Assembly: GCF_023055435.1 (NCBI RefSeq)
Contig: NW_025963791.1
Location: 11,904,001-11,968,000, forward strand
DNA from: Haliotis rufescens
Lineage: Eukaryota
Direction of reading: 5' to 3'
Length of the DNA: 64,000 bases
Shown here: positions 5,045 through 64,000 of the stretch, piece after piece
Numbering within the stretch: the stretch's first letter is position 1
Layout of the letters: every line of letters begins with the position of its first letter
The notes under the pieces: generated by a model
The model's input: only the letters and a program-made list of their open reading frames with translations
The model's database searches: none
Told to the model about the DNA's origin: nothing
Position numbers and translations under genes: made by a program

Positions 5045-5634
5045 TGTATCGTTGCTAGTGGTACCAGGTACCAGTTTGGGCTAGACGAAGCATTGACGAA
5101 GCAAAGAGTTTAATCAGACGTCTCCTTGGGATCACACCTGTGATCCCTGGCGATAAGAAATTTGGCATTGCATGCCAGGCCAGCAGTTAGACGTATCAAT
5201 GCACAATCGTAAATTCTCCTCAGCGTAATATGCATCTTGAACGTGTGTGGTAACAGGGTGTGTTTGGTAACTTGAGTAGGAAGCACAAGTGCACGAGGGG
5301 ATGTTATTTCAGATGACAAATGAAAGAAGACAGAATGATTGTGACGCAAATTTAGTGACTGGTGGCCGTGANNNNNNNNNNNNNNNNNNNNNNNNNNNNN
5401 NNNNNNNNNNNNNNNNNNNNNNNNNNNNNNNNNNNNNNNNNNNNNNNNNNNNNNNNNNNNNNNNNNNNNNNNNNNNNNNNNNNNNNNNNNNNNNNNNNNN
5501 NNNNNNNNNNNNNNNNNNNNNNNNNNNNNNNNNNNNNNNNNNNNNNNNNNNNNNNNNNNNNNNNGTTTATACTACTGCTAGTCAATACGAATGCTTGCGC
5601 ACTGGTTATTTAAAGTAATATCATTTGATTGCAG
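3857..5634 (+). other. Putative 5'UTR intron of the + strand TLR
   Basis: Donor acaag|GTATGT at 3857 is conserved in the paralogous region (14464); acceptor ttgattgcag at 5634 is also conserved (15808). Confidence 0.5.
4961..5043. repeat. (CA)n microsatellite
   Basis: Direct reading. Confidence 0.97.
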
Positions 5635-5645
5635 ATAGTGCTGCT

Positions 5646-8252
5646 ATGAATACAATCTTGCTCTTGGTTTTCACACTGGCCCTGAAAGCCACATCGACCA
5701 TGACCAGCAACGAAGTTGATGAGAATGAAAGTTGTGACCGTCGCTGTCACTGTTGGCATGACAACAGAAGCTATGGTGGGGACATGAACATAGCCAACTG
5801 TTCAGGCCGGAACATATCTTCACTGCAGGATCTCATCCTTCCTACAAACACCAATGTGATCCTTCTGGAACGTAACAACATAAGAAAATTGGGAAATGAC
5901 GACTTTAGACCATATCATAATCTGACCCATTTAGATTTGGGCACTAACGAGATATCGATTGTGGAAGAGAGAGTGTTTGGACAACTGTACCAACTGGTTT
6001 TCCTTAACTTAGAAACAAATCATATTGCTTTACATGTTTTGGGCCAAAATCCACAATTATTCAAAGACCTTGTTAGCTTGAAGGTTTTGAAATTGAACGA
6101 CAATGGAAATGGGCGTAAAAGTGTGTGTTCTGTTGACACGAAAACCTTAAACACCTACCCTGATGTTTTTCACTGGCTTGTTTCGCTGGAGACCTTATTC
6201 ATTGACGGAATCACCAACGCAACTTTTGGTTTAGGATTCTCTAACCTCACCAAGTTTACCAGCCTTACAATGTCTGGAGATAATGGACAATGTACCATAG
6301 GGAACCTTCATAATACATCCTTTGAACATGTACAATACCTAACATACTTGGATATATCAAACTGTTCTATAACTGACATTGAGGCTGACACGTTTTCACA
6401 TATGCCAAACATTCAAACCCTGAACATATCCTCCAACATGCATCTTGGATTCACGAAATTAGGTCAAGCTTTATACGGCCTTCAGTCATCTAACATTAGA
6501 ATCCTGGTAGCGAACAGAATCGTCCTAATGCATCCGAAATGTGTCGTGATCAAACAAGAGGATGTGCAATATCTGAACAACACGTCCCTAACACGACTCT
6601 ATGTGGATGACAACAGTATCATGAACATCGAGCGAGGCGTGCTGCGTCTCTTGCCAAACACTCTGAGCTTCATCTCTGCACAACGGCATAAACTTGATTA
6701 TGGAGCTTACTTCCAGGAACTGAAATATCTCACAGGCTTAAAGTATTTGCACCTCAGTGGAGTGTCTTACCATATAGATGTGCCCATTCGAGATATGTTG
6801 GAGGTACAGTTTTCTGATGAAGTAAACGGTATCCATCCAATGTCTTGGGTTTATGAAATACAGCCTTATACATATCCGTATAACACAACGCCTGATTTAG
6901 GGGTAGCAAATTTAACACTACCCCCAAACCTGACGAAGGTTCATTCGAACTTTACACAACTGACTAATACGCTTGCATCTGTAAGGATTCAAGCTGAGAG
7001 TTTACAACAAGTGGATCTATCCAGCAATCTCCTTCAGTTTCGTGAAGGGACTTTGTTAGGATATGACAATGTAACCTTTTTAGACTTATCCAACAACCTT
7101 GCTCGGTGGCTGTCTCCAGATCTGTTTCAACACTGTGTTTCCTTAGAAGTGCTAAATTTATCGTACAACTTCTTCAAATGGAACCTATACAATGATACGG
7201 AGGGAAAGATTTTCAGAAATCTGTTTCGCTTGAAGCAACTTCACCTCGCATCAAACGGTCTGGAGCAGGTAAGTGGGATGATATTTCGTAATCTGACATC
7301 GCTTGAAATTCTTAACTTGTCTAATAACTCGCTGTACAACTTTTCCCCTGAACTGGGACATCTAAAGAAGTTGAAACAGATAGATTGTTCAAACAATCAG
7401 ATTCACTGGCTTATGTCAGATGTTCGAAGACAAATAAGTGCTTTGAAACTAGTCTCCCCGAACCTGACGTTGAACCTGCGTGGGAACCCATTGGGGTGTA
7501 CATGTTGGAATTTAGAGACTTTAAGCTGGCTGCTTGATTCGGGAGTGACCCAAGATGATATGTATGGCTATTTTTGTTTGCAAAACCATCACAGAAGATA
7601 CATTAAAAATAAAGACGAGTTTCAAGATCTGATAAGCGAAATGAAGACCAAATGCTTTGCTTCCGTAAGTATTTCCCTTGGCACATCTGCTGGAATCCTT
7701 TTCTTCTTCTGTGTCGTGATTGTTGGGTTGGTTCGAAGATACAGGTGGAAGTTACGCTATCTCTTCTACTCTGCCAGACTTAAGTATAAAAGTGACCACA
7801 ATACTCCAGATGATGGGTACTTCATGCATGATGCTTTTGTCTCCTACGCTGATGAAGACCGTGCATTTGTCGTCAATGACATGCAACACCACATGGAAAT
7901 TTATGATGGAATAAACCTCAACATCCACCACCGTGACTTTATGCCAGGAGATCCTATAGCTTCAAACATCATTGGCGCCATCAAGAATAGCAGGAAGACT
8001 GTGGTGGTTCTGTCCCAGAACTTCCTCAACAGTTACTGGTGCACGTACGAACTGCGCATGGCCCAGATGGAGAGCATCAGTAGTGGGAGGGACATTCTCA
8101 TCATCATCATGTTCGAACCCGTGCCTGCCAAGAACATCCCGCCAGAAATTTTGAAACTGTTGCACACAGATTCTTACATAGCCTACCCAAGCGATGAGGA
8201 AGACAGGGAGGAGTTCTGGAGATGCTTGTGTCAGAGTGTCCGACCACAGTGA
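5646..8252 (+). CDS. Toll-like receptor, subtype 1 (signal peptide, LRRNT, LRRs, LRRCT, TM, TIR), about 868 aa, single coding exon
   Basis: Signal-like MNTILLLVFTLALKATS; LRRNT CDRRCHC..ANCS; many LxxLxLxxN repeats; LRRCT NPLGCTC..C..C; TM SISLGTSAGILFFFCVVIVGLV followed by RRYRWKLRY; TIR box1 HDAFVSYA, BB loop HHRDFMPG, box3 FW. The ORF-track start at 5625 is a TTG upstream of an acceptor (tttgattgcag, AG 5633-5634). The first ATG is at 5646. Confidence 0.95.
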   Translation: MNTILLLVFTLALKATSTMTSNEVDENESCDRRCHCWHDNRSYGGDMNIANCSGRNISSLQDLILPTNTNVILLERNNIRKLGNDDFRPYHNLTHLDLGTNEISIVEERVFGQLYQLVFLNLETNHIALHVLGQNPQLFKDLVSLKVLKLNDNGNGRKSVCSVDTKTLNTYPDVFHWLVSLETLFIDGITNATFGLGFSNLTKFTSLTMSGDNGQCTIGNLHNTSFEHVQYLTYLDISNCSITDIEADTFSHMPNIQTLNISSNMHLGFTKLGQALYGLQSSNIRILVANRIVLMHPKCVVIKQEDVQYLNNTSLTRLYVDDNSIMNIERGVLRLLPNTLSFISAQRHKLDYGAYFQELKYLTGLKYLHLSGVSYHIDVPIRDMLEVQFSDEVNGIHPMSWVYEIQPYTYPYNTTPDLGVANLTLPPNLTKVHSNFTQLTNTLASVRIQAESLQQVDLSSNLLQFREGTLLGYDNVTFLDLSNNLARWLSPDLFQHCVSLEVLNLSYNFFKWNLYNDTEGKIFRNLFRLKQLHLASNGLEQVSGMIFRNLTSLEILNLSNNSLYNFSPELGHLKKLKQIDCSNNQIHWLMSDVRRQISALKLVSPNLTLNLRGNPLGCTCWNLETLSWLLDSGVTQDDMYGYFCLQNHHRRYIKNKDEFQDLISEMKTKCFASVSISLGTSAGILFFFCVVIVGLVRRYRWKLRYLFYSARLKYKSDHNTPDDGYFMHDAFVSYADEDRAFVVNDMQHHMEIYDGINLNIHHRDFMPGDPIASNIIGAIKNSRKTVVVLSQNFLNSYWCTYELRMAQMESISSGRDILIIIMFEPVPAKNIPPEILKLLHTDSYIAYPSDEEDREEFWRCLCQSVRPQ

Positions 8253-15595: not shown

Positions 15596-15819
15596 ATTTT
15601 TACTAAATGAAATAACTTTAGAAACTGAGCATAAATGCACTGTTTGAGTGAACCGCCCCATCTATCATAAAGCAGGAAATATTTCAGGGTATATACCCGA
15701 CCGCCCCTCGATGTGTGGAGGATTACGTTATAAATACTGCTCCTTGTCAGTACAAATGCATGCGCACTGATTAATTGTATACGTCTTTTATATGTCTTTT
15801 GATTGCAGATAGTGCTGCT

Positions 15820-16327
15820 ATGAATACAATCTTGCTCTTGGTTTTCACACTGGCTCTGAAAGCCACATCGACTATGACCAACAACGAAGGTGATGAGAAT
15901 GAAAGTTGTGACCGTCGCTGTCACTGTTGGCATGACAACAGAAGCTATGGTGGGGACATGAACATAGCCAACTGTTCAGGCCGGGGAATATCTTCACTAC
16001 AGGATCTCATCCTTCCTACAAACACCAATGTGATCCTTCTGGAAAGTAACAACATCAGTAAATTGGGAAATGACGACTTTACACCATATCATAATCTGAC
16101 CCATTTAGATTTTGGCACTAACGATATATCGATTGTGGAAGAGAGAGTGTTTGGACAACTGTACCAACTGATTTTGCCTTAACTTAGAAACAAATCATAT
16201 TGCTTTACATGTTTTGTGCCAAACAGCACAATTATTCCAAGACCTTGTTAGCTTGAAGGTTTTGAAATTGAACGACAGTGGAAATGGGAGTAACAGTGTG
16301 CGTTTTGTTGACACGAAAACCCCAAAT
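15820..16327 (+). pseudogene. Truncated, frameshifted paralog of the 5646-8252 TLR (5' ~500 nt only)
   Basis: Highly similar to 5646-6150, with the same upstream acceptor (AG 15807-15808). A 1-nt insertion near 16176 (attttgcctt vs gttttcctt) gives TAA at 16180-16182. Homology stops near 16327 at SINE sequence. No TM or TIR. Confidence 0.9.
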
Positions 16328-21298: not shown

Positions 21299-23931
21299 CT
21301 ATGGAATAGCCTGCGACGACGAACTGGTCGAATTCTGACGATGTGATCGATGTCGCAAGGCCCGTCCTATGTGTTTCCAGAAGATGTAACTGTCAGCTTC
21401 ACCGTGCGGGTACTCAATATAGGAATCAGACTGCAGCATATGAAGAAACTCCGGTGGGATATTCTTAGCGGGTACTGACTCATACATGATGATGATGATG
21501 ATGTCCCTCCCACTACTGATGCTCTCCATCTGGGCCATGCGCAGTTCGTACGTGCACCAGTAACTGTTGAGAAAGTTCTGGGACAGAACCACCACCGTCT
21601 TCCTGCTCTTCTTGATAGCGCCAACGATGTTTGAAGCAATAGGCTCTCCTGGCATGAAGTCACGGTGGTGGATGTTGAGAGTCATACTGGCATCGTGTTC
21701 CAAATGCGCTCTCATGTCATTAATGACAAACCCTCGGTCTTCATCAGCATAGGAGACAAAGGCGTCGAATGCGAACTGATCTTGCTCTTCTTCAGCGTCG
21801 TTGTCCGTCATGTAACGTAACCTTGCAGCGTAATACAGATACCTTAACTTCCATCTGTACCGATAGACGATTGCAGAAACCATCAGTGCAATAACTACGA
21901 CGAAGACGGATGCACATCCTAGAGCGAGTCCGAAGTTGTTTTGACACTCTGCGGTTTGCTCATCTATCAGTTTCGCAAAGTCCGCCTTGTTCAGGATTTT
22001 TCTTCTGCTCGTGTCGGCCAGAAGACAATAGTAGCCATTCATATTATCAGGTGTTATCCCCGAAGTTAGCAGCCATTTGAGAAACGGAAGCTGATTGCAG
22101 AGACATGATAATGGATTACCTTGAAGATGTAATGTTAAGTTTGGAACCTTCGATTTAATTTCCTTGATATCATCCATGACTTTTGGTGACAACAACGATA
22201 TTTGGTTGTGTGAACAGTCTATGACCTGTAGATGAATCAAGTGGTTGATTGTGGCGTTAAAGTTGTACATTCCGTTATTTGACACGTTTAAAATCTGTAA
22301 GGAATACAGATCGCGTAATACATCACCTTTCAGCCCTTTCAAATCATTATTGGAAATAACCAACTCTGTAAGTTGAGTCAGGTTTTTGAATATTTCACCC
22401 TTTTTATCTCTCTGTATCTGCCAACCAAAGAAATTATACGACATGTTCAAGGTGCGAAGGTTCAAGGAGTTTGCGAGTAATGTAGGAGACATTTTCCTGG
22501 CTAGATTATTGGATAGATCTATGTATGTAACATTATCCAGCCCTCTTATATATCCATTGTCAAAGATGACAAGATTACTGGACAGATCAAGATAGGATAG
22601 ATTTGATGCTTCAAAGCGTATTTTCCCGATCTGGAACGCCATTTGTGTGAAGTTCGACACTATCGTCTTCAGATTCGGCGGGAGTGATAAGTTGAAAAGA
22701 GACGAAAAACGATCACTAACTGTCTCTGATTCGTACCAGACACTGCGAGATTGAAGTTCACTTTCCAGAACATCACGTTCGTCTATCTCATCATGGAAAC
22801 AATACGGTGTCTCAGACTGGGCACACGTTTGGTCATCGACAGTGTCATCGTTTGGAACATTAATTGGGTATGGTTGTCCACTTAACCAAATTTCCTCGAG
22901 TCCCGTGAGAGAAGCTAAGTCATGTAGATATTGTCCGTAGCTAAATTTATTCCTCTGGGCCGATACGAATCGTAGAGTCTTGGGCAAGAGCTCCAGCGCC
23001 TTCATCTCAATATCTACAATTTCGTTGGAATCAATGTACAGATTTTCTAGGGAGGTGTTGAAGAGGTGAACAACATGTGCCTTGCGAATTACTACACAAC
23101 TAGTATGCCTTAACACGATGTGATTGGCTTTCAGGGTTGTGATGTTCGTGAACTGTAGTCCATACGTTCCGATGCCAAATGATTGAAATGTGAGTCTAAA
23201 ATTACCAGATATATCAAGCGTTCTCAGTTTCCTCAGTTGCGAAAAGGTCTCATTTTCAATGTGGAAAATTAAACATTTTGATACATCCAAATATTCCAAG
23301 AAAACAGTGTTATTAAATGTAAATGCTGACAGTGTTGTTTTGTTACAAAATCCGTGTTTCCCAGAAACGGTAAGATGAGTTAGTTTTGTAAGGTTCCTGA
23401 AGCCCGGTCCAAATTCCCCATCTGGAACGCCATTGATGAAGAGAGTTTCCAAGGATGTAAGCCGGCTCAGAGCTTCGTCGGGGTATTCAGTCATACTGTT
23501 GTTATTCAGCCAGAGCGTTTTAAGGTTGTGTAACCCTCTGAACGAATTTCTCGTTAATACAGATGGCTCGATAATACTGTGGGATAAATTAAGAACTCTC
23601 AAACTGCTCATGTTTTCAAAACCATCTTCCTCGATGGCGTTTACGACATTGAAGGACAGGTCAAGATGCGTCAAATTCGGAAACATTGCAAATTCAAAGT
23701 TGTTTATGCATGATAAATTGTTGTGGTCGAGGAGAAGAATGTTGACTCCATCTGGAATTGTAACGTTTGACAGAGACGTTAGATGTAGAGAGCTGCAGTT
23801 GACTAATTTGTTATCATGACTGACATTACATCTTTGCCGGTCAACATTGCTGCTGCCACTTCCCGTGGCCTTGACATTCTGGTTCTCTGAGAGAACGAAA
23901 ATTCCGCAGATAATGGCAGCATGGATGGTAT
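21299..23931 (-). CDS. Toll-like receptor subtype 2, copy A, exon 2 (LRRNT-LRRs-LRRCT-TM-TIR)
   Basis: The ORF stays open upstream of 23686 (TIHAAIICGIFVLS..RCNVSHDNKLVNCSS..) to an acceptor tttcag at 23937-23932. LRRCT NPLSCLC; TM FGLALGCASVFVVVIALMVSAIV; TIR FDAFVSYA / HHRDFMPG / FW. Confidence 0.95.
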
Positions 23932-24519
23932 CTGAAATTAAGGTTATTAAAGATGATCATTGACGTTACCAATTAATAATTCGCACGGAAAGCAGAAATT
24001 CAGGACTGACGTGGTCCGGAGTAATGAGTTTATATTGCTTATGGAATTAGTTACTATTATTATTTATTAAGTTATCTNNNNNNNNNNNNNNNNNNNNNNN
24101 NNNNNNNNNNNNNNNNNNNNNNNNNNNNNNNNNNNNNNNNNNNNNNNNNNNNNNNNNNNNNNNNNNNNNNNNNNNNNNNNNNNNNNNNNNNNNNNNNNNN
24201 NNNNNNNNNNNNNNNNNNNNNNNNNNNNNNNNNNNNNNNNNNNNNNNGGCATGTCATTACAGATTCCCTATAGAAGTAATGAAAGAATCTGATGGTCCTT
24301 AACTTCATTTGAGGAACACATATGGAAATATATTTTGGAAAACTGTAATGTTGGAATTAGGGTTCAATAGTAAAAGGTTTAGTTGCTTGCAGCTCGGTTG
24401 CGATATAAATAATGTGAGCTAAAGAAACTATTGTTTGACGAGCAATCATACTTATGAATGTTATGATGTAATATGCTTTTCCTGAATGGGGATGTACAAT
24501 GCTTAACACAACCACGTCT

Positions 24520-27486: not shown

Positions 27487-27514
27487 TGAAAGCCGCCATG
27501 ATGACACCAGACAT
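27487..27514 (-). CDS. TLR copy A coding exon 1 (MSGVIMAAF + 1 nt)
   Basis: Minus strand reads ATG TCT GGT GTC ATC ATG GCG GCT TTC A|GTAAGT. Phase 1 matches exon 2, which starts AT ACC.., giving the signal peptide MSGVIMAAFNTIHAAIICGIFVLS. Present in all three units. Confidence 0.8.
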
Positions 27515-28760: not shown

Positions 28761-31190
28761 GCTACTACTACTATTAATACTATTTATGCGCGTCATTCTG
28801 AATGTTTACTGAAACGTTACCCTTATCAATAAGAAAACTGCATCGAATAAGTTCATTAATTTCCTCGTTTAACTATTATTTTCCTGTAAATATTAAATGA
28901 AGGTGAAGCATCGGCTTTGCCCTCAGGAATTTGCTAGTTCTTGCATGCTAGAATTATTTTCCATTCCACTGTCACATTTGGATCTGCGCACTCTCTCGAA
29001 CTAGGAAGTGATGGACTCCCAGTCCAGTCCCGGCACTCTCTTATTTGATTTATAACTATTTAATCCGGATGTGTCGAATTGCCTGTGGTTTCAAACTCAC
29101 ATGATAGTCACAAGAGTTAAAAATAAACTAAAACTCAGCTTAGCACTGTAAGTTAGAATTTGTATTCCACGACCATAGACAGAAAACGAGTGGANNNNNN
29201 NNNNNNNNNNNNNNNNNNNNNNNNNNNNNNNNNNNNNNNNNNNNNNNNNNNNNNNNNNNNNNNNNNNNNNNNNNNNNNNNNNNNNNNNNNNNNNNNNNNN
29301 NNNNNNNNNNNNNNNNNNNNNNNNNNNNNNNNNNNNNNNNNNNNNNNNNNNNNNNNNNNNNNNNNNNNNNNNNNNNNNNNNNNNNNNNNNNNNNNNNNNN
29401 NNNNNNNNNNNNNNNNNNNNNNNNNNNNNNNNNNNNNNNNNNNNNNNNNNNNNNNNNNNNNNNNNNNNNNNNNNNNNNNNNNNNNNNNNNNNNNNGGTTC
29501 TTGGCCAGGCCAAATGATTGGTACACAATCAACAAGGTCTCTTGGAGTCTGAGCCAGACAGTCTGGTTATTGGCATCATGGACCCATGGATCATGGACCC
29601 GACCACGCGATCCATTTGGTCGCCTCTTACGACAAGCATACGTTCTGCCGGGGTAATGCCACGTATGAGAGAAAATCATTTTCGATTCTATTGAAATGTA
29701 TGTCATGGTGAAAAATCAAACAATGTTTTATTCCTGATATCTATCTTTAATAACAATTGTGCCTACTCATATAACATGGTTTATATTCGACTGATATAAA
29801 ATGATCATGCATACATGTTTCTTTGTACTAGCAAATATATGTTGACGGACTAGACTATCAATCAACATGAACTCCTACATTACAGCAGGTTATGTATACT
29901 ATATATACATCAGTTTGAAGCGAAACATTGTTTATCTCTTTTATGGTCCCATGCACTTATAAAATCAATAATAATTGCTATTACTGACAAAAACATTATA
30001 TACATTGCATTTCAACGTTTCATTTTCCTGTATCTACACAATATACACATATATACACATGTATGTAATAATAAATGCTGTTACTAACAAAACACTTAGA
30101 TTCATAATATGCACTGTATTTCAACGTTTCATTACTATGTATGTACACAATAGGTACACAATATCTTTACTTAATAAACACATTTGACAATATACTGACC
30201 TGACAATTATTGGAGACCCGACTTCTTCTATATTGACGGACCCGACAGTTCAGTTCGCTGTTGGCTGATTACTGATACATTATGTAACTTTCAGAAATGC
30301 AGCCTCTATAATTTTGCTTTTTCTCCAGCGTCTGTCAGAGGAAATACGGTACAGGGAACTGGTGACACAGCACCGATGAAGTGGTAGAAGATTAAACAGA
30401 TGGAGTACATATGTTATAATTTGTAGGCTTATCATCTCGGGAATACGGTTGAAGTGCCCTCTATGCGGTCGTGAACTCCGATCCTATTGGGCACATAAGC
30501 CTTATTCCTCTAGGGATAAGCCTACAACTAAATATCTTAAGTTTATCATTATCGTGTTTCTCATTACCAAAATTTGAAAACCATTTGTGATTTATATTCA
30601 AAGAATTATGTCGCCAAATTGACAGGTCAGATCAAGCTCGGTTTTCGGCTCTGTAAAAATATCAGTGCTAAGATACATTATGCGACTCCGTTTTGCTGTA
30701 AGGAGCTTGAGTTGCAGAGTGAGTGAGTGAGTGAGTTCAGTTTAACGCCACTTTTAACAGTATCTCAGTTATATCGCGGTGTGTCAGCTTAATGTGGGAG
30801 GAAAGCCCGAAGTGATGCAGGTCTAAGACGTTTACCACTTCGGTGAAACCCACGAGCACGGGTATGGTGCTGACAAACCTAGAAACATAATCGGGGCGAA
30901 CCGGGACTCGAACCCACAATCATTGGTTTCTTGCGTGCCCAAGGGACGCAACTCTGCACAGCGAATCGCGGCGCCTTAGACGACTGGGCCACCCGTGCCC
31001 CCCTTGAGTTGCGGAGATTACAAAGATCAGTTGTTGCCATGTTGGTAAAGTATAAGCTTTTTGCTGTTGATTTACGCATCCGTCGGAATGGTTCCAATGG
31101 TTCTATAAACAATACAGTCACCGGAAGGCATCGGATGTCAAATAGATTTCAGTACAATAATGTATCAGATATATGTAATGTTCACTGGTA

Positions 31191-33823
31191 CTATGGAACA
31201 GCCTGCGACGACGAACTGATCGAATTCTGACGATGTGATCGATGTCGCAAGGCCCGCCCTATGTGTTTCCAGAAGATGTGACTGTCAGCTTCACCGTGCG
31301 GGTACTCAATATAGGAATCAGACTGCAGCATATGAAGAAACTCCGGTGGGATATTCTTAGCGGGTACTGACTCATACATGATGATGATGATGATGTCCCT
31401 CCCACTACTGATGCTCTCCATCTGGGCCATGCGCAGTTCGTACGTGCACCAGTAACTGTTGAGAAAGTTCTGGGACAGAACCACCACCGTCTTCCTGCTC
31501 TTCTTGATGGCGCCAACGATGTTTGAAGCAATAGGCTCTCCTGGCATGAAGTCACGGTGGTGGATGTTGAGAGTCATACTGGCATCGTGTTCCAAATGCG
31601 CTCTCATGTCATTAATGACAAACCCTCGGTCTTCATCAGCATAGGAGACAAAGGCGTCGAATGCGAACTGATCTTGCTCTTCTTCAGCGTCGTTGTCCGT
31701 CATGTAACGTAACCTTGCAGCGTAATACAGATACCTTAACTTCCATCTGTACCGATAGACGATTGCAGAAACCATCAGTGCAATAACTGCGACGAAGACG
31801 GATACACATCCTAGAGCGAGTCCGAAGTTGTTTTGACACTCTGCGGTTTGCTCATCTATCAGTTTCGCAAAGTCCGCCTTGTTCAGGATGTTTCTTCTGC
31901 TCGTGTTGGCCAGTAGACAATAGTAGCCATTCATATTATCAGGTGTTATCCCCGAAGTTAGCAGCCATTTGAGAAACGGAAGCTGATTGCAGGAACATGA
32001 TAATGGATTACCTTGAAGATGTAATGTTAAGTTTGGAACCTTCGATTTAATTTCCTTGATATCATCCATGACCTTTCGTGACAACCACGATATTTGGTTG
32101 TGTGAACAGTCTATGACCTGTAGATGAATCAAGTGGTTGATTTTGGCGTTAAAGTTGTACATTCCGTTATTTGACACGTTTAAAATCTGTAAGGAATACA
32201 GATCGCGTAATACATCACCTCTCAGCCCTTTCAAATCATTATTGGAAATAACCAACTCTGTAAGTTGAGTCAGGTTTTTGAATATTTCACCCTTGGTATC
32301 TCTCTGTATCTGCCAACCAAAGAAATTATACGACATGTTCAACGTGCGAAGATTCAAGGAGTTTGCGAGTAATGTAGGAGACATTTTCCTGGCTAGATTA
32401 TTGGATAGATCTATGTATGTAACATTATCTAGCCCTCTTATATATCCATTGTCAAAGATGACAAGATTACTGGACAGATCAAGATAGGATAGATTTGATG
32501 CTTCAAAGCGTATTTTCCCGATCTGGAACGCCATTTGTGTGAAGTTCGACACTATCGTCTTCAGATTCGGCGGGAGTGATAAGTTGAAAAGAGGTGAAAA
32601 ACGATCACTAACTGTCTCTGATTCGTACCAGACACTGCGAGATTGAAGTTCACTTTCAAGAACATCACGTTCGTCTATCTCATCATGGAAACAATACGGT
32701 GTCTCAGACTGGGCACACGTTTGGTCATCGACAGTGTCATCGTTTGGAACATTAATTGGGTATGGTTGTCCACTTAACCAAATTTCCTCGAGTCCCGTGA
32801 GAGAAGCTAAGTCACGTAGATATTGTCCGTAGCTGAATTTATTCCTCTGGGCCGATACGAATCGTAGAGTCTTGGGCAAGAGCTCCAGCGCCTTCATCTC
32901 AATATCTACAATTTCGTTGGAATCAATGTACAGATTTTCTAGGGAGGTGTTGAAGAGGTGAACAACATGTGCCTTGCGAATTACTACACAACTAGTATGC
33001 CTTAACACGATGTGATTGGCTTTCAGGGTTGTGATGTTCGTGAACTGTAGTCCATACGTTCCGATGCCAAATGATTGAAATGTGAGTCTAGAATTACCAG
33101 ATATATCAAGCGTTCTTAGTTTCCTCAGTTGCGAAAAGGTCTCATTTTCAATGTGGATAATAAAACATTTTGATACATCCAAATATTCCAAGAAAACAGT
33201 GTTATTAAATGTAGATGCTGACAGTGTTGTTTGGTTACAAAATCCGTTTTTCCCAGAGGCGGTAAGATGAGTTAGTTTTGTAAGGTTCCTGAAGCCCGGT
33301 CCAAATTCCCCATCTGGAACGCCATTGATGAAGAGAGTTTCCAATGATGTAAGCCGGCTCAGAGCTTCGTCGGGGTATTCAGTCATATTGTAGTTATTCA
33401 GCCAGAGCGTTTTAAGGTTGTGTAACCCTCTGAACGAATTTATCGTTAATACAGATGGCTCGATAATACTGTGGGATAAATTAAGGACTCTCAAACTGCT
33501 CATGTTTTCAAAACCATCTTCCTCGATGGCGTTTACGACATTGTAGGACAGGTCAAGATGCGTCAAATTCCGAAATCTTGCAAATTCAAAGTTGTTTATG
33601 CATGATAAATTGTTGTGGTCGAGGAGAAGAATGTTGACTCCATCTGGAATTGTAACGTTTGACAGAGACGTTAGATGTAGAGAGCTGCAGTTGACTAATT
33701 TGTTGTCATGACTGACATTACATCTTGGCCGGTCAACATTGCTGCTGCCACTTCCCGTGGCCTTGACATTCTGGTTCTCTGAGAGAACGAAAATTCCGCA
33801 GATAATGGCAGCATGGATGGTAT
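31191..33823 (-). CDS. Toll-like receptor subtype 2, copy B, exon 2
   Basis: Same length (2633 nt) and acceptor as copy A; open frame; about 97% aa identical to A; 1 aa different from C in the ORF-track translation. Confidence 0.93.
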
Positions 33824-36800
33824 CTGAAATTAGGGTTATAAAAGATGATTATTGACGTTACCAATTAATAATTCGCACGGAAAGCAGAAATTCAGGACTG
33901 ACGTGGTCCTGAGTAATGAGTTTATATTGCTTATGGAATTACTTACTATAATTATTTATTAAGTTATCNNNNNNNNNNNNNNNNNNNNNNNNNNNNNNNN
34001 NNNNNNNNNNNNNNNNNNNNNNNNNNNNNNNNNNNNNNNNNNNNNNNNNNNNNNNNNNNNNNNNNNNNNNNNNNNNNNNNNNNNNNNNNNNNNNNNNNNN
34101 NNNNNGGCATGTCATTACAGATTCCCTATAGAAGTAATGAAAGAATCTGATGGTCCTTAACTTCATTTGAGGAGCACATATGGAAATATATTTTGGAAAA
34201 CTGTAATGTTGGAATTAGGGTTCAATAGTAAAAGGTTTAGTTGCTTGCAGCTCGTTTGCGATATAAATAATGTGAGCTAAAGAAACTATTGTTTGACGAG
34301 CAATCATACTTATGAATGTTATGATGTAATATGCTTTTCCTGAATGGGGATGTACAATGCTTAACACAACCACGTCTGCCCTGTTTCTAGTGCATTTATT
34401 TCCTCCTAGTACCCTGAAGTGATCGTGAACTGTATACGTAGATGTCGTACCCCTGTTTCCAGTGCATTTATTTCCTAATAAACTAGTACCTTGAAGTGAT
34501 CATGAACTGTACACGTAGATGTCATACCCCTGGTTCCAGTGCATTTATTTCCTAATAAACTAGTACCTTGAAGTGATCATGAACTGTATACGTAGATGAC
34601 GTATCCCTGGTTCTAGTGCATTTATTTCCTAATAAACTAGTACATGTACCGTGAAGTGATCATGAGCTGTATACGTAGATGACGTACCCCTGATTCTAGT
34701 GCATTTATTCCCAAATAAACTAGTACCTTGAAGTGATCATGAGCTGTAGATGGCATACCCTGTTTTTAGTGCATATATTTAAAAAATATCTAGTACCTTG
34801 AAGTGATCATGAGCGGTATACGTAGATGTCGTACCCCTGTTTCTTGTGCATATATTTCCGAATTAACTACCTTGAAGTGATCACGAGCTGTAGATGGCGT
34901 GCTCCTGTTTCTAGTGTATTTATCCCTTAATAGTTTTAGAGAGCTGATTGATGCAGAGATAGCAGAGCTGTTGAAGGACAATGTCCACTTGCACAAAGCG
35001 ATCTTAGCGCTACGACTATCGTAAGCCTATGTTATAGTATGGGAGTTACGATCATCTTAGCAATAAGATCGTTTTGTGCAAGTGGGCCGGTTGGAAAGCT
35101 ATCTTAAGTGTTTGAGGAATACGATAATTAATCAAACAGTTTTATCTGGAATCTACACAAAGGCCTTGGACTTTGTCATTGTCATCGTAGAAATGTTAAG
35201 CTCACATCCGTCCAGTCAAGACTGTCGTTTGATTGATTGAGATCATGCTAAAAGTAGTGAGATTCCGTAAGTGGGTCGGGGCGCACAAAAATTAAATAAG
35301 TAAACAAAATTTAATTAAAAGCAATTTTTTTTATTCAAACAAGTTGACTTTGGTTTAACATGTTTAAAACTACGTAATTGGGGATAAAAACAGGGTACGT
35401 CGGAATAGTGGTTTACATACAAACACTGGCCGGCATATCAGAATAAACTTTGAATTTTGTAGGTTTTCTGCACATGGACTATTCGTATTGAAAATGGGTG
35501 CATCTCAGTATTGGTTAAGCTGCGTTATCATGGGGTTATCATTATGCGAACCTGCACACACGTGAGAGCAGTCAAGTGTGACTTGTTTTATTATTCCTAT
35601 ATTGAGATACCACAAAGCCATAATGAACGAAACTACACCCATATATAAATGAAGTTTGAAGTGTATTCCCATGTTCAAGACCCGTGAAGATCCGGGGTAG
35701 AATAGGTCTTCAGCAACACATGCTTGCCGTAAGAGGTGACTATGCTTGTCGTAAGAGGCGTCTAACGGGATCGGGTGATGAGGCTCGCTTACTTTGTTGA
35801 TGCATGTCATCGATCCGAATTGCGTGGATCGATGCTCATGATATTAATCACTAGATTGTCTGGTCCATACTCGATTATTTACAGACCGCCGTCATATAGC
35901 TGGAATATTGCTAGGTGCGGCGTTAAACAACCAACCAACAAACCAACCAACCAACCCATGTTCAAAGGTTCTTTGTCTTGTATGGAACATGATGGCACAA
36001 ATAGCGATATATCTGGCAAAATCTCCAACAAACAAAGCCCACCTGAGTAATATCAGAGATAACGATCCATTGGTATCAAAAGGTATATATATGCCAACCA
36101 CATACATGTATTCCTTGGTTTGGTTCATTATGGCATTCAAAACAAAAATGTCATTTATAATAAATTAAATCTGTTCATGTATATTTTTATGCCGTGATTT
36201 AGGTTATTAATTGTATTAATAAAAGGCTTTGATCAGATACGTTGGACAGTTATATATACTTCATTCAGGAATCAAACTTGAATATTTGAGATTGCTGATA
36301 TCTCAAATAATGTCATTGTGGTTTGGATCTGTATGGCTTCATGGTATCCGCTTATCACCTGCATTCAGCACATGAACGTTTGGGGGGCACGGGTGGCCCA
36401 GTCGTCTAAGGCGCCGCGATTCGCTGTGCAGAGTTGCGTCCCTTGGGCACGCCAGAAACCTATGATTGTGAGTTCGAATCCCAGTTCGCCCCGATTTTGT
36501 TTCTAGGTTTGTCAGCACCATACATGTGCTCGTGGGTTTCACCGAAGTGGTAAACGTCTTAGACCTGCATCACTTTCCTCCCACATTAAGCTGACACGCC
36601 GTGATATAACTGAAATAATGTTAAAAGCGGCGTTAAACCCAACTCACTCACTCACTCACATGAACTTGTTATTGGTCAGTTTGTGAAGTATACGATCCCG
36701 ATACAGTGTAAGGAAAGAGATGTTTGTAATATTGTACTCGGGTCGTATATTCCTACAACTGACTAATAAAAAGTTCCTGTGCACTCAGCATACAATATTT

Positions 36801-38474: not shown

Positions 38475-41400
38475 GCTACTACTACTATTAATACTATTTA
38501 TGCGCGTCATTCTGAATGTTTACTGAAACGTTACCCTTATCAATAAGAAAACTGCATCGAATAAGTTCATTAATTTCCTCGTTTAACTATTATTTTCCTG
38601 TAAATATTAAATGAAGGTGAAGCATCGGCTTTGCCCTCAGGAATTTGCTAGTTCTTGCATGCTAGAATTATTTTCCATTCCACTGTCACATTTGGATCTG
38701 CGCACTCCCTCCTTCTTTGTATCATTGTTTCCATTTGGTTCAATTGTAAATTTTAGTTCTGATTTCATTAATAAAAGTGATGTAAACGAGATGTTTCTTG
38801 TGGCCTCACTGCGTATACATTTTACAGCTAATATCTCATATCTGTACATACTGAGTGAGCGAGTGAGTGAGTCTTGTTTAACGCCGCTTTGAACAGTAAC
38901 TTTTGTCTCGAACTAGGAAGTGATGGATCACAGTCCAGTCCCGACACTCTCTTATTTGATTTATAACTATTTAATCCGGATGTGTCGAATTGGCTTTGGT
39001 TTCAAACATAACATGTACCCCTTCTGAAGTGCCCTCTTGTTATTTGGCGACCGACTGCCTCTGTTGTCTAGTGGTAGAGCGCCTGCCCTGTCAGCNNNNN
39101 NNNNNNNNNNNNNNNNNNNNNNNNNNNNNNNNNNNNNNNNNNNNNNNNNNNNNNNNNNNNNNNNNNNNNNNNNNNNNNNNNNNNNNNNNNNNNNNNNNNN
39201 NNNNNNNNNNNNNNNNNNNNNNNNNNNNNNNNNNNNNNNNNNNNNNNNNNNNNNNNNNNNNNNNNNNNNNNNNNNNNNNNNNNNNNCAATCGCACACACG
39301 CGCCATAAACGAGACAAGGCGATGTTGAATCCTTGAGAGGCAACAGGTTGTAGGTTGTGCGGTCCCTGAATGATCCAAGCACTCTTTCGAGTCGGTCTCC
39401 AATAAGCCTTTTGCTCGAGTCCATCGCATGCGGTTCTTGAGCAAGTTTCCAGCACTCCGTCCTCGTCGACAAGGTCCGTCCTCTGTGGCTCCTGTCTCCA
39501 ATGCGCCTTGCTTGTTGACCGTGTCCCATGTGGTTCCTGGGAACATCCCCAGTACAGTGTCCTTCGCATGCGGTTCTTGAGCAAGTTTCCAGCACTCCGT
39601 CCTCGTCGACAAGGTCCGTCCTCTGTGGCTCCTGTCTCCAATGCGCCTTGCTTGTTGACCGTGTCCAATGCGGTTCTGGTCTTCTGTTGTCCTGGCGTTA
39701 CTCGTCGAGAGAGACCACAAAATGAGAATCGGATGGACAGGCAGGATAAGCTTACCCTTTTAGCGAACACCTGGTGTCATCACTGATTTTCAAGGATCAA
39801 CACATATAATTTTCATCACTGGTTTGCCTTCTACACCAAATGAAGTAGATAATCGAAAATGATTTTCTCTCATACGTGGCATTACCCCGGCAGAACGTAT
39901 GCTTGTCGTAAGAGGCGACCAAATGGATCGCGTGGTCGGGTCCATGATCCATGGGTCCATGATGCCAATAACCAGACTGTCTGGCTCAGACTCCAAGAGA
40001 CCTTGTTGATTGTGTACCAATCATTTGGCCTGGCCAAGAACCTGNNNNNNNNNNNNNNNNNNNNNNNNNNNNNNNNNNNNNNNNNNNNNNNNNNNNNNNN
40101 NNNNNNNNNNNNNNNNNNNNNNNNNNNNNNNNNNNNNNNNNNNNNNNNNNNNNNNNNNNNNNNNNNNNNNNNNNNNNNNNNNNNNNNNNNNNNNNNNNNN
40201 NNNNNNNNNNNNNNNNNNNNNNNNNNNNNNNNNNNNNNNGCAGGTTCTTGGCCAGGCCAAATGATTGGTACACAATCAACAAGGTCTCTTGGAGTCTGAG
40301 CCAGACAGTCTGGTTATTGGCATCATGGACCCATGGATCATGGACCCGACCACGCGATCCATTTGGTCGCCTCTTACGACAAGCATACGTTCTGCCGGGG
40401 TAATGCCACGTATGAGAGAAAATCATTTTCGATTCTATTGAAATGTATGTCATGGTGAAAAATCAAACAATGTTTTATTCCTGATATCTATCTTTAATAA
40501 CAATTGTGCCTACTCATATAACATGGTTTATATTCGACTGATATAAAATGATCATGCATACATGTTTCTTTGTACTAGCAAATATATGTTGACAGACTAG
40601 ACTATCAATCAACATGAACTCCTACATTACAGCAGGTTATGTATACTATATATACATCAGTTTGAAGCGAAACATTGTTTATCTCTTTTATGGTCCCATG
40701 CACTTATAAAATCAATAATAATTGCTATTACTGACAAAAACATTATATACATTGCATTTCAACGTTTCATTTTCCTGTATCTACACAATATACACATATA
40801 TACACATGTATGTAATAATAAATGCTGTTACTAACAAAACACTTAGATTCATAATATGCACTGTATTTCAACGTTTCATTACTATGTATGTACACAATAG
40901 GTACACAATATCTTTACTTAATAAACACATTTGACAATATACTGACCTGACAATTATTGGAGACCCGACTTCTTCTATATTGACGGACCCGACAGTTCAG
41001 TTCGCTGTTGGCTGATTACTGACACATTATGTAACTTTCAGAAATGCAGCCTCTATAATTTTGCTTTTTCTCCAGCGTCTGTCAGAGGAAATACGGTACA
41101 GGGAACTGGTGACACAGCACCGATGAAGTGGTAGAAGATTAAACAGATGGAGTACATATGTTATAATTTGTAGGCTTATCATCTCGGGAATACGGTTGAA
41201 GTGCCCTCTATGCGGTCGTGAACTCCGATCCTATTGGGCACATAAACCTTATTCCTCTAGGGATAAGCCTACAACTAAATATCTTAAGTTTATCATTATC
41301 GTGTTTCTCATTACCAAAATTTGAAAACCATTTGTGATTTATATTCAAAGAATTATGTCGCCAAATTGACAGGTCAGATCAAGCTCGGTTTTCGGCTCTG

Positions 41401-41937
41401 TAAAAATATCAGTGCTAAGATACATTATGCGACTCCGTTTTGCTGTAAGGAGCTTGAGTTGCAGAGTGAGTGAGTGAGTGAGTTCAGTTTAACGCCACTT
41501 TTAACAGTATCTCAGTTATATCGCGGTGTGTCAGCTTAATGTGGGAGGAAAGCCCGAAGTGATGCAGGTCTCAGACGTTTACCACTTCGGTGAAACCCAC
41601 GAGCACGGGTATGGTGCTGACAAACCTAGAAACATAATCGGGGCGAACCGGGACTCGAACCCACAATCATTGGTTTCTTGCGTGCCCAAGGGACGCAACT
41701 CTGCACAGCGAATCGCGGCGCCTTAGACGACTGGGCCACCCGTGCCCCCCTTGAGTTGCGGAGATTACAAAGATCAGTTGTTGCCATGTTGGTAAAGTAT
41801 AAGCTTTTCGCTGTTGATTTACGCATCCGTCGGAATGGTTCCAATGGTTCTATAAACAATACAGTCACCGGAAGGCATCGGATGTCAAATAGATTTCAGA
41901 ACAATAATGTATCAGATATATGTAATGTTCACTGGTA

Positions 41938-44570
41938 CTATGGAACAGCCTGCGACGACGAACTGATCGAATTCTGACGATGTGATCGATGTCGCAAGGC
42001 CCGCCCTATGTGTTTCCAGAAGATGTGACTGTCAGCTTCACCGTGCGGGTACTCAATATAGGAATCAGACTGCAGCATATGAAGAAACTCCGGTGGGATA
42101 TTCTTAGCGGGTACTGACTCATACATGATGATGATGATGATGTCCCTCCCACTACTGATGCTCTCCATCTGGGCCATGCGCAGTTCGTACGTGCACCAGT
42201 AACTGTTGAGAAAGTTCTGGGACAGAACCACCACCGTCTTCCTGCTCTTCTTGATGGCGCCAACGATGTTTGAAGCAATAGGCTCTCCTGGCATGAAGTC
42301 ACGGTGGTGGATGTTGAGAGTCATACTGGCATCGTGTTCCAAATGCGCTCTCATGTCATTAATGACAAACCCTCGGTCTTCATCAGCATAGGAGACAAAG
42401 GCGTCGAATGCGAACTGATCTTGCTCTTCTTCAGCGTCGTTGTCCGTCATGTAACGTAACCTTGCAGCGTAATACAGATACCTTAACTTCCATCTGTACC
42501 GATAGACGATTGCAGAAACCATCAGTGCAATAACTACGACGAAGACGGATACACATCCTAGAGCGAGTCCGAAGTTGTTTTGACACTCTGCGGTTTGCTC
42601 ATCTATCAGTTTCGCAAAGTCCGCCTTGTTCAGGATGTTTCTTCTGCTCGTGTTGGCCAGTAGACAATAGTAGCCATTCATATTATCAGGTGTTATCCCC
42701 GAAGTTAGCAGCCATTTGAGAAACGGAAGCTGATTGCAGGAACATGATAATGGATTACCTTGAAGATGTAATGTTAAGTTTGGAACCTTCGATTTAATTT
42801 CCTTGATATCATCCATGACCTTTCGTGACAACCACGATATTTGGTTGTGTGAACAGTCTATGACCTGTAGATGAATCAAGTGGTTGATTTTGGCGTTAAA
42901 GTTGTACATTCCGTTATTTGACACGTTTAAAATCTGTAAGGAATACAGATCGCGTAATACATCACCTCTCAGCCCTTTCAAATCATTATTGGAAATAACC
43001 AACTCTGTAAGTTGAGTCAGGTTTTTGAATATTTCACCCTTGGTATCTCTCTGTATCTGCCAACCAAAGAAATTATACGACATGTTCAAGGTGCGAAGAT
43101 TCAAGGAGTTTGCGAGTAATGTAGGAGACATTTTCCTGGCTAGATTATTGGATAGATCTATGTATGTAACATTATCTAGCCCTCTTATATATCCATTGTC
43201 AAAGATGACAAGATTACTGGACAGATCAAGATAGGATAGATTTGATGCTTCAAAGCGTATTTTCCCGATCTGGAACGCCATTTGTGTGAAGTTCGACACT
43301 ATCGTCTTCAGATTCGGCGGGAGTGATAAGTTGAAAAGAGGTGAAAAACGATCACTAACTGTCTCTGATTCGTACCAGACACTGCGAGATTGAAGTTCAC
43401 TTTCAAGAACATCACGTTCGTCTATCTCATCATGGAAACAATACGGTGTCTCAGACTGGGCACACGTTTGGTCATCGACAGTGTCATCGTTTGGAACATT
43501 AATTGGGTATGGTTGTCCACTTAACCAAATTTCCTCGAGTCCCGTGAGAGAAGCTAAGTCACGTAGATATTGTCCGTAGCTGAATTTATTCCTCTGGGCC
43601 GATACGAATCGTAGAGTCTTGGGCAAGAGCTCCAGCGCCTTCATCTCAATATCTACAATTTCGTTGGAATCAATGTACAGATTTTCTAGGGAGGTGTTGA
43701 AGAGGTGAACAACATGTGCCTTGCGAATTACTACACAACTAGTATGCCTTAACACGATGTGATTGGCTTTCAGGGTTGTGATGTTCGTGAACTGTAGTCC
43801 ATACGTTCCGATGCCAAATGATTGAAATGTGAGTCTAGAATTACCAGATATATCAAGCGTTCTTAGTTTCCTCAGTTGCGAAAAGGTCTCATTTTCAATG
43901 TGGATAATAAAACATTTTGATACATCCAAATATTCCAAGAAAACAGTGTTATTAAATGTAGATGCTGACAGTGTTGTTTGGTTACAAAATCCGTTTTTCC
44001 CAGAGGCGGTAAGATGAGTTAGTTTTGTAAGGTTCCTGAAGCCCGGTCCAAATTCCCCATCTGGAACGCCATTGATGAAGAGAGTTTCCAAGGATGTAAG
44101 CCGGCTCAGAGCTTCGTCGGGGTATTCAGTCATATTGTAGTTATTCAGCCAGAGCGTTTTAAGGTTGTGTAACCCTCTGAACGAATTTATCGTTAATACA
44201 GATGGCTCGATAATACTGTGGGATAAATTAAGGACTCTCAAACTGCTCATGTTTTCAAAACCATCTTCCTCGATGGCGTTTACGACATTGTAGGACAGGT
44301 CAAGATGCGTCAAATTCCGAAATCTTGCAAATTCAAAGTTGTTTATGCATGATAAATTGTTGTGGTCGAGGAGAAGAATGTTGACTCCATCTGGAATTGT
44401 AACGTTTGACAGAGACGTTAGATGTAGAGAGCTGCAGTTGACTAATTTGTTGTCATGACTGACATTACATCTTGGCCGGTCAACATTGCTGCTGCCACTT
44501 CCCGTGGCCTTGACATTCTGGTTCTCTGAGAGAACGAAAATTCCGCAGATAATGGCAGCATGGATGGTAT
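41938..44570 (-). CDS. Toll-like receptor subtype 2, copy C, exon 2
   Basis: Same length and acceptor (ct at 44571-44572 on + strand); intact LRR-TM-TIR. Confidence 0.95.
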
Positions 44571-44731
44571 CTGAAATTAGGGTTATAAAAGATGATTATT
44601 GACGTTACCAATTAATAATTCGCACGGAAAGCAGAAATTCAGGACTGACGTGGTCCTGAGTAATGAGTTTATATTGCTTATGGAATTACTTACTATAATT
44701 ATTTATTAAGTTATCTGTCCCCTATGAACGA

Positions 44732-52747: not shown

Positions 52748-52804
<57 letters not shown>
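52748..52804. repeat. (TA)n microsatellite
   Basis: Direct reading. Confidence 0.96.
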
Positions 52805-52808
<4 letters not shown>

Positions 52809-52839
52809 ATCAATGAAGAGAGTTGTATAACAACATATC

Positions 52840-63445: not shown

Positions 63446-64000
63446 CTGATTCGTTATAATAGTAGGCCCACTTCATGCCCAATATGACTGAGCACAATGT
63501 AATTATTAATTATACATGATCCTATGTCCCCTATGCGAATGGGAGTGTATGTTTCCTCTGTCGTCCTAGCATGTGACAAGATAGGTTACTAGAGCTGTCT
63601 TATATCTATTTATTTACTAACAACTTTCTCACTTGCGTTGTTTTGTTGTTCATTTAAACAACTCAATGTATGAGGCACACCAGTTCATGAAAATAGACAA
63701 ATAGCAACAGATAAAAGAGTTTTATGTTTAGTACGTTACACTCTTATACGTTACCTCTATCATACGAATTAGAATATTCCCGCCATAAAGGTTTAAATCA
63801 CTTGGCTAGGTATGAGAAGCAATGAGATTTTGACCATGTGCTACACTTCGGGCCGAATTTGACGTTGTCAAAGAGACGTTACATACCAGTTTCATGACAT
63901 TGTTTCCAAACAAATTTGTGAGTATACACATCAAAGTCTATATCTCCTGATAGAACCACTGATGGTTGTATTTATGACAGGGTGTGAAGATTGTTTGAGG

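What the first reader, a model, noticed from the sequence alone, without database searches (positions are those of the whole stretch)
7917..8111. TIR core ~95% identical at the nucleotide level between two otherwise divergent TLR subtypes
Seen: 7917-8111 (195 nt, LNIHHRDF..IIIM) differs from the reverse complement of the minus-strand genes (e.g. about 31377-31571) at only about 9 positions. It includes a perfect run of about 70 nt (ctcaacagttactggtgcacg..gggagggacat) that covers silent sites. The ectodomains align only patchily even as protein, and identity falls off on either side of the tract. The tract is also more GC-rich than the rest of the CDS. Inference: gene conversion keeps the adaptor-docking surface (BB loop with the conserved Pro, through to the TIR betaD region) uniform while the sensor domains diverge. 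That would give many sensors sharing one signalling module.
Basis: partly seen in the sequence, partly recalled or inferred. Interest (0 to 1): 0.72.

Follow-up and report, generated by a model that had tools for sequence, protein, structure and literature searches.

The report
Abalone immune receptors share copied core
Two long-diverged neighbouring Toll-like receptor genes of an abalone share a nearly identical 195-base stretch of their signalling domain, most likely copied between them by gene conversion as in mammalian TLR1 and TLR6, and several other receptor clusters in the same genome show the same pattern.

Summary
Observation confirmed. Window 7917-8111, in TLR gene A1, differs from the three opposite-strand B genes at 9-10 of 195 bases, with a perfect 71-nt run. 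Silent sites: 51 of 56 shared codons are identical in the tract, against 34 of 106 in equally conserved protein blocks outside it. The right edge at 8112 is sharp. Protein conservation and GC bias do not explain it, so gene conversion is well supported. In two close species the tract still sorts by orthologue. Its silent divergence (0.08-0.14) matches the old A1/A2 duplication (0.11). The TIR C-terminal third stays about 42% identical. The wider result: 32 of 4546 TLR pairs, in 9 groups, show TIR-restricted silent homogenisation, and in a second cluster the TIR sorts by species lineage while the ectodomain sorts by orthologue. The mechanism is known from vertebrate TLR1/TLR6; my searches found no report of it in molluscan TLRs. 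New member of a known kind.

The parts
5646..8252 (+). TLR gene A1, one open frame of 868 aa (LRR ectodomain, TM, TIR)
   Evidence: ORF; Pfam LRR_8 and TIR; 94% identical to H. cracherodii P0001
7917..8111 (+). Homogenised TIR core tract (betaB, BB loop, alphaB, betaC, alphaC, CD loop, betaD); BB-loop Pro codon at 7944-7946
   Evidence: 9-10 mismatches to B genes; 51 of 56 silent-identical codons; aligned to the TLR2 TIR, with the Pro at the position mutated in 1fyx; element names recalled
8025..8095 (+). Perfect 71-nt A/B run; collapses into one 71-letter contig in runs X9, X19, X20
7833..7883 (+). Second, weaker homogenised segment (betaA to alphaA), probably an older exchange
   Evidence: 11 of 14 silent identity, P=0.002 against ectodomain, segment chosen after looking
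8112..8141 (+). Right flank: 8 of 10 residues equal to B but only 2 of 8 codons identical; marks the tract edge; its protein likeness to B is unexplained
21299..23956 (-). TLR gene B1, main coding exon (open frame); short first coding exon near 27514
   Evidence: matches RefSeq P0082
21485..21679 (-). B1 copy of the tract
   Evidence: 10 mismatches to A1
31191..33848 (-). TLR gene B2, main coding exon (open frame); short first coding exon near 37216
   Evidence: matches RefSeq P0007
31377..31571 (-). B2 copy of the tract
   Evidence: 9 mismatches to A1
41938..44595 (-). TLR gene B3, main coding exon (open frame); short first coding exon near 47377
   Evidence: matches RefSeq P0083
42124..42318 (-). 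B3 copy of the tract
   Evidence: 9 mismatches to A1
15734..16321 (+). Truncated, frameshifted copy of the 5' end of gene A; has no TIR
   Evidence: 92% to 5569-6146; tblastn shows a frame change near 16176

Best explanation
The 195-base tract is nearly identical between two otherwise silent-site-saturated, neighbouring Toll-like receptor subfamilies (A and B) of an abalone, most likely because non-allelic gene conversion copied the TIR core between them long after they diverged. Shown: the silent-site identity, its boundaries inside the coding sequence, its presence in other individuals and species, and similar bounded TIR tracts in other TLR groups of the genome. Inferred: purifying selection kept the TIR core as the only stretch alike enough for the two oppositely oriented genes to pair during break repair; copies landing there were tolerated because both receptors probably engage similar adaptors, while copies elsewhere could not start or were removed. 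The last tract-wide event is inferred to be about as old as the A1/A2 duplication: before the split of the close species sampled, and probably after the split from H. rubra and H. asinina. The direction was probably B to A, and there was probably more than one episode (the older 7833-7883 segment). It is episodic, not continuous, in this pair.
For: Silent identity 51 of 56 in the tract against 34 of 106 in runs of 4 or more identical residues elsewhere in the same pair. 0 of 20000 permutations reach the score. The tract is bounded on both sides by saturated coding sequence, and a stringent blastn HSP covers only those 196 nt. Negative control: L042/L069 and L043/L048 keep 89-91% residue identity in the same core with only 27 of 55 and 27 of 54 silent identity. 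A2, 2.1 Mb away, carries the same tract. A and B forms with the collapsed 71-nt core occur in runs of three other coded organisms; an independent DNA run holds both forms. Direction: at 3 of 75 columns in 7917-8141 against 1 of 760 outside, northern A equals all B while southern A equals the outgroup (P=0.003). The high-identity segment ends before the stop codon in 14 of 15 pairs examined. In the L038-L040 cluster the TIR rejects the orthologue clade (p-AU 0.009, or 0.034 without outgroup) while the ectodomain rejects the lineage clade (p-AU 0.0002). Precedent: PMC2077338, PMC3125219.
Against: Among close species the tract sorts by orthologue. The A/B tract protein tree across the deep split is unresolved. 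Three A/B differences (7971 I/V, 7986 N/K, 8097 L/I) are shared between northern A and H. rubra A, which fits one event before the deep split more simply than a later one. The later date rests on my own scaling of deep-split dS (0.2-0.37): P of seeing 4 or fewer silent differences is 0.15 at dS 0.21 and 0.011 at 0.37. The B-like residues at 8121 and 8127 that support the B-to-A direction lie outside the silent-identical tract (2 of 8 codons), which conflicts with a simple single tract. Four silent changes were seen in the tract among orthologues and recent paralogues where 8.6 are expected at the normal rate (P=0.07), so some slowing of silent change is possible. Pairs are not independent, and the 103 genes were a chosen subset.
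Confidence: 0.82

Rival explanations
1. Ongoing, selected homogenisation: conversion recurs in each species and is favoured because it keeps one adaptor-docking surface for many sensors.
For: The tract covers the BB loop and alphaB/alphaC, the BB and BC surfaces of TIR assemblies (PMC8110528 passages). Three late changes each make A and B alike within a lineage: 7940 T in B of organisms C and D (deduced from contig difference counts), 8001 V in this genome's B against L in H. cracherodii B, and 7986 K in H. asinina A. The L038-L040 cluster sorts by lineage; L037/L046 have 60 of 60 silent identity in the core.
Against: For A/B the tract sorts by orthologue among close species, and its dS (0.08-0.14) is about three times the roughly 0.03 between this genome and organism C. 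The three like-making changes are single substitutions at variable sites and, by my rough count, no more than chance. In 3 of 17 pairs the best segment starts after the BB-loop proline, and the part common to all 17 is A1 residues 793-806, the conserved alphaC region. alphaD, betaE and alphaE stay different. No test of selection or adaptor binding was made.
Confidence: 0.25
2. Nucleotide-level constraint (an RNA element or regulatory site) froze silent sites in this stretch since the A/B duplication; no copying.
For: Only 4 silent tract changes among four comparisons against 8.6 expected at flank rates (P=0.07).
Against: It needs a 9- to 18-fold slowdown, under which 0.5-1.0 changes are expected and 4 are seen (P=0.016 to 0.0014). 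Other TLR subfamilies do not share these codons (73-77% at best), and each homogenised group has its own boundaries. No RNA-structure test was run.
Confidence: 0.05
3. Strong protein conservation plus GC-biased codon choice in the TIR core gives the identity.
For: The core is GC-rich at silent sites in 95 of 98 other TLRs, and background core silent identity (0.42) exceeds ectodomain (0.35) in 4409 saturated pairs.
Against: Pairs with 89-91% core residue identity show only about 0.50 silent identity; A/B shows 0.89-0.95. Identity drops to 2 of 8 at 8112 while residues stay 8 of 10 identical.
Confidence: 0.02
4. A chimeric gene made by a single unequal crossover or inversion (ectodomain swap), or an assembly chimera.
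For: Single-exon tandem TLRs can swap domains; L078/L079 do show identity running on into the 3' flank.
Against: The A/B tract has two edges inside the TIR; A's own C-terminus is 33-34 of 36 identical to A of H. rubra and H. asinina. A1 differs from B at 9 sites, A2 and H. cracherodii A1/A2 carry the tract, and independent runs hold both forms. A double crossover cannot be told from conversion by sequence.
Confidence: 0.05

Closest known systems
Mammalian TLR1/TLR6 gene conversion (Kruithof et al. 2007, PMC2077338; abstract and first part of Discussion read)
   Same: Neighbouring TLR paralogues within 55 kb; C-terminal region including most of the TIR homogenised; N-terminal sensor region and extreme C-terminus divergent; paralogue-specific residues kept inside the converted region.
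   Different: TLR1/6 tract is about 300 aa (LRR16-19, cap, TM, three quarters of TIR) and recurs independently in most species; here it is 65 aa inside the TIR only, the paralogues are far more diverged (45% ectodomain identity, saturated silent sites), oppositely oriented, and the A/B event predates the close species sampled.
Avian TLR1A/1B and TLR2A/2B conversion (Huang et al. 2011, PMC3125219; abstract and section 17 read)
   Same: Same diagnostic: identical codons at conserved residues, 96-99% inside against 56-66% outside; in primates TLR1/6 orthologues cluster because the last event is old, as for A/B here.
   Different: Vertebrate two-gene families with tracts of about 650-1250 nt; here an expanded invertebrate repertoire with at least 6-9 groups affected.
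Expanded invertebrate sccTLR repertoires (mussels PMC10279657; sea urchins PMC3367398; passages read)
   Same: Tandem, largely single-exon TLRs with diverse ectodomains and conserved TIRs; classified on TIR-domain trees.
   Different: Those papers ascribe TIR conservation to negative selection; the word searches found 0 occurrences of 'recombination' or 'concerted' in either main text, and 0 of 'conversion'.
Drosophila Toll-3/4 paralogues (PMC5850136; passages read)
   Same: Recombination breakpoints detected by GARD among invertebrate Toll paralogues.
   Different: Used only to split alignments; no TIR-restricted homogenisation is described in the passages seen.

Membership tests
Toll-like receptor (LRR-TM-TIR) | LRR ectodomain and C-terminal TIR domain in one protein | tested here: met
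   Pfam LRR_8, TIR, TIR_2 above cut-offs for A1 and B2; best PDB hits are TLR2, TLR6, TLR1 TIRs
Toll-like receptor (LRR-TM-TIR) | BB-loop proline | tested here: met
   RDFMPG aligns with TLR2 RDFIPG; the 1fyx chain has H at that position
Toll-like receptor (LRR-TM-TIR) | Expression and adaptor-dependent signalling | not testable with these tools
   No holder was on record as RNA; no functional data
Non-allelic gene conversion tract between paralogues (TLR1/TLR6 type) | Silent-site identity inside the tract far above the rest of the gene | tested here: met
   51 of 56 against 34 of 106; pS 0.13 against 0.83
Non-allelic gene conversion tract between paralogues (TLR1/TLR6 type) | Significant contiguous fragment with boundaries (GENECONV-like test) | tested here: met
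   0 of 20000 permutations; my own permutation test, not GENECONV; HSP limited to 196 nt
Non-allelic gene conversion tract between paralogues (TLR1/TLR6 type) | Paralogues physically close | tested here: met
   A1 and B1 13 kb apart, tail to tail; A and B proteins of H. rubra, H. asinina and H. cracherodii are listed with equal longest-contig lengths within each species, which suggests old linkage
Concerted evolution (recurrent, species-wise conversion) | Tract sequences cluster by species, not orthologue: A/B pair, close species | tested here: not met
   Organisms C and D: A-type 0 differences from A1 over 7922-8054, B-type 1 from B2
Concerted evolution (recurrent, species-wise conversion) | Tract sequences cluster by lineage: A/B pair, deep split | tested here: inconclusive
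   Protein only; p-AU 0.18 and 0.25; site pattern favours B to A in the northern lineage
Concerted evolution (recurrent, species-wise conversion) | TIR clusters by lineage while ectodomain clusters by orthologue: L038-L040 cluster | tested here: met
   TIR rejects orthologue clade p-AU 0.009/0.034; ectodomain rejects lineage clade p-AU 0.0002; protein level; clear for the northern lineage (2-3 of 124 differences), weaker for H. rubra (8-9) and H. asinina (18)
Concerted evolution (recurrent, species-wise conversion) | Selective advantage of homogenisation | not testable with these tools
   Needs population data and binding assays

The most novel reading that the evidence does not exclude
Across the expanded abalone TLR repertoire, recurrent TIR-restricted gene conversion is a selected mechanism that keeps groups of divergent sensors wired to the same adaptor while sparing a few subfamily-specific alphaB/betaD residues; TIR-based trees of invertebrate TLRs then misdate and misgroup these genes.
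Probability: 0.3. Interest if true: 0.68.

Novelty: new member of a known kind. Interest (0 to 1): 0.47.

Why it matters
The mechanism is known from vertebrate TLR1/TLR6, so one more pair is not surprising. What adds value is the scale: about a third of the TLRs sampled (34 of 103, a chosen subset) sit in a pair whose TIR was homogenised long after the sensors diverged. Large invertebrate TLR repertoires are often classified on TIR-only trees and their TIR conservation is put down to purifying selection; conversion would shorten TIR branches, hide orthology and bias dN/dS by domain. It also makes a standing question testable: how do many sensors share few adaptors? The groups found predict which receptors share an adaptor, and the spared residues (7971, 7986, 8097) are candidates for subfamily-specific contacts.

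Tried and rejected
Single-sequence AlphaFold of the A1 TIR gave mean pLDDT 44: not used; structure elements were mapped from the TLR2 alignment with recalled element names. Protein tree of the 65-residue tract: unresolved, neither grouping rejected. TIR tree for the L024-L046 group: no clear sorting by species; H. rubra and H. asinina orthologues of both L037 and L046 were not found, so that pair could not be tested. No RNA holder listed: no evidence on expression either way. No DNA of H. rubra or H. asinina was reachable; the sequencing-run search only finds near-identical sequence. Searches of earlier scan findings returned nothing. No published silent divergence between the deep Haliotis lineages was found. 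A1/A2 permutation test found no clear internal tract (best P 488 of 20000 for a whole-gene segment). tblastn found no further TLR in the 20 kb on each side of the window, and no B gene within the 50 kb around A2. GC richness as a special mark of this tract was rejected as mostly family-wide; genes in significant pairs do have a larger GC3s excess (0.21 against 0.16 without A/B, P=0.02, genes not independent), which fits GC-biased conversion but does not show it. No complex prediction was run. Literature: ten searches found no report of TIR conversion in molluscan TLRs. The abalone TLR survey cited in PMC12521104 (Zou et al. 2023) was seen only as a reference, subscription journals are not searched, and no supplements were read, so prior mention cannot be excluded.

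Full report
Setting. The window holds four intact Toll-like receptor genes: A1 (5646-8252, +) and three near-identical B genes on the minus strand (B1, B2, B3), plus a broken 5' piece of A at 15734-16321. Pfam gives LRR and TIR domains. The closest named proteins are from abalones: the B proteins match RefSeq entries labelled Haliotis rufescens, with A and B orthologues in H. cracherodii, H. rubra and H. asinina. A second A gene, A2, lies 2.1 Mb away on the same contig. A and B are each other's nearest subfamilies among the 103 TLRs compared (ectodomain 45%, next best 35%).

The observation. The tract 7917-8111 differs from B2 and B3 at 9 of 195 bases and from B1 at 10, with a perfect run at 8025-8095. 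Silent divergence is pS 0.127 inside and 0.83 in the ectodomain. Among codons for identical residues, 51 of 56 are identical in the tract against 34 of 106 in runs of four or more identical residues elsewhere. None of 20000 permutations reached the segment score. The right edge is abrupt (2 of 8 codons at 8112-8141 despite 8 of 10 identical residues). On the left a weaker segment, 7833-7883, has 11 of 14. The ectodomains are colinear, not patchy. GC3s is high in the tract (0.70-0.77) but the TIR core is GC-richer than the ectodomain in 95 of 98 other TLRs.

It is real. A2 carries the tract, as do both H. cracherodii A proteins. In contigs of three other coded organisms the 71-nt core collapses into one contig flanked by separate A and B forms, and an independent DNA run holds both forms. 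These are contigs: they show presence, not expression or copy number.

It is copying, not conservation. Control pairs with 89-91% residue identity in the same core show about 0.50 silent identity. A frozen silent rate would predict 0.5-1.0 changes across four comparisons where 4 are seen, although 4 is also somewhat below the 8.6 expected at flank rates (P=0.07). Two edges inside the coding sequence exclude a single crossover.

When and in which direction. Tract dS is 0.08 (A2-B2) to 0.14 (A1-B2); A1-A2 outside the tract is 0.11. Organism C differs from this genome by about 0.03 at silent sites (9 changes in about 279 sites, from the rows shown), and its tract forms sort by orthologue. So the last tract-wide event is older than those species. 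Whether it is younger than the split from H. rubra and H. asinina is favoured but open. My scaling of that split (dS 0.2-0.37, from branch lengths and the ratios) gives P from 0.15 to 0.011 for the few differences seen. The protein tract tree is unresolved. For a later, B-to-A event: at 8043, 8121 and 8127 northern A equals all B while southern A equals the outgroup, 3 of 75 columns against 1 of 760 elsewhere. Against it: residues at 7971, 7986 and 8097 separate A from B in both this genome and H. rubra, and two of the three supporting sites lie where codons are not shared. If the event is late, those three residues were spared, as described for TLR1/TLR6. Three late changes make A and B alike within a lineage (7940, 8001, 7986); they may be micro-conversions or parallel substitutions.

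What the tract covers. By alignment to the TLR2 TIR (element names recalled) it runs from betaB through the BB loop, alphaB, betaC and alphaC to betaD. In MyD88 assemblies the BB loop forms the BB surface and alphaB/alphaC the BC surface, while betaD, betaE and alphaE form the EE surface and the CD loop with alphaD the CD surface. The tract therefore equalises the BB and BC faces and leaves most of EE and alphaD different (15 of 36 identical beyond 8141). That is a shared face, not a shared module; the functional reading is inference from vertebrate structures.

The wider pattern. A search with the A1 TIR scored 150 of 241 candidates. I fetched 100 loci, chosen for score and long open frames and thinning some near-identical arrays; 2 loci and one extra short frame were dropped as under 600 residues, leaving 98, plus the five A/B genes. 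Of 5253 pairs, 4546 had enough informative codons; 32 pass Bonferroni for core silent identity above ectodomain and 1 for the reverse. In 14 of 15 pairs examined the high-identity segment ends before the stop codon (two of these pairs were picked by eye and are not among the 32). Tract starts vary: in 3 of 17 pairs the best segment begins after the BB-loop proline, and all 17 include A1 residues 793-806. That fits initiation where sequences are most alike as well as it fits selection on the BB loop.

Known cases. Conversion of the TIR-containing C-terminal region is established for mammalian TLR1/TLR6 and avian TLR1A/B and TLR2A/B. Ten searches found no report for molluscan TLRs; the mussel and sea urchin repertoire papers use TIR trees and do not mention conversion in their main text; a coral genome paper calls conversion rare among tandem genes; Drosophila Toll-3/4 paralogues show recombination breakpoints. 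Subscription journals and supplements were not seen.

Verdict. A real conversion tract (confidence about 0.82 for the account above), a new member of a known kind. The repeated occurrence across an expanded invertebrate TLR family is the part worth following up. Interest 0.47.

Noticed in passing
G000:C13:14003462-14006134 (L015): Second A-type TLR (A2), 2.1 Mb from the cluster, 89% identical to A1; A1/A2 divergence is patchy along the gene (0 to 19 differences per 90 nt), and organisms C and D have an A gene mixing A1-like and A2-like states at 7884-7958, which hints at A1/A2 exchange.
   Followed up: partly
window 29496-33968 and 40243-44715: B2 and B3 units are 99.8% identical over 4.5 kb including flanks. 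In DNA run X12 the B contigs have depth about 30-33 against 23-26 for A1, less than three copies would suggest; depth is a poor measure, but B copy number may vary or the assembly may over-count.
   Followed up: no
window 31572-32294 (B2 distal ectodomain and TM) and 31210-31376: Between B2 and organism C, 22 of 26 listed differences change the residue and 4 are silent, suggesting dN/dS near or above 1 in the distal ectodomain.
   Followed up: partly
window 8112-8141: Northern A has V-P-A-K-N like all B, while H. rubra and H. asinina A have outgroup-like residues, yet only 2 of 8 codons match B and all 6 differences are transitions. Older conversion, parallel change next to the imported core, or change in southern A: unexplained.
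   Followed up: partly
window 15734-16321: Frameshifted 5' fragment of an A gene between A1 and B1, 92% to A1 and 89% to A2.
   Followed up: partly
L037 and L046 (G000:C112:61.05-61.07 Mb): Head-to-head TLR pair with 47% ectodomain identity and 60 of 60 silent identity in the TIR core, 413 nt at 97.8%: a very recent event; L046 has a shortened, altered C-terminus.
   Followed up: partly
L038-L040 (G000:C13:32.37-32.46 Mb): TIR sorts by species lineage, ectodomain and last 15 residues by orthologue: the clearest concerted-evolution case found.
   Followed up: yes
L085-L093 (G000:C124:11.87-12.08 Mb): Cluster of TLRs in both orientations sharing a segment of about 500 nt from the TM through the TIR at about 90%; L086/L090 show the reverse pattern, ectodomain more alike than core.
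   Followed up: partly
genome-wide: The TIR search returned 150 scored matches of 241 candidates, at least 103 in open frames of 600 residues or more, against 33 TLRs cited for H. rufescens in a review (PMC12521104): the repertoire looks under-counted.
   Followed up: no
TIR core of 98 TLRs: Silent-site GC is raised in the TIR core family-wide (GC4 0.55 against 0.38 in ectodomains), possibly a footprint of GC-biased conversion.
   Followed up: partly
window 52796-55243 and 61142-63448: Long tandem minisatellite arrays; many dispersed 260-290 nt repeats also lie between the TLR genes.
   Followed up: no
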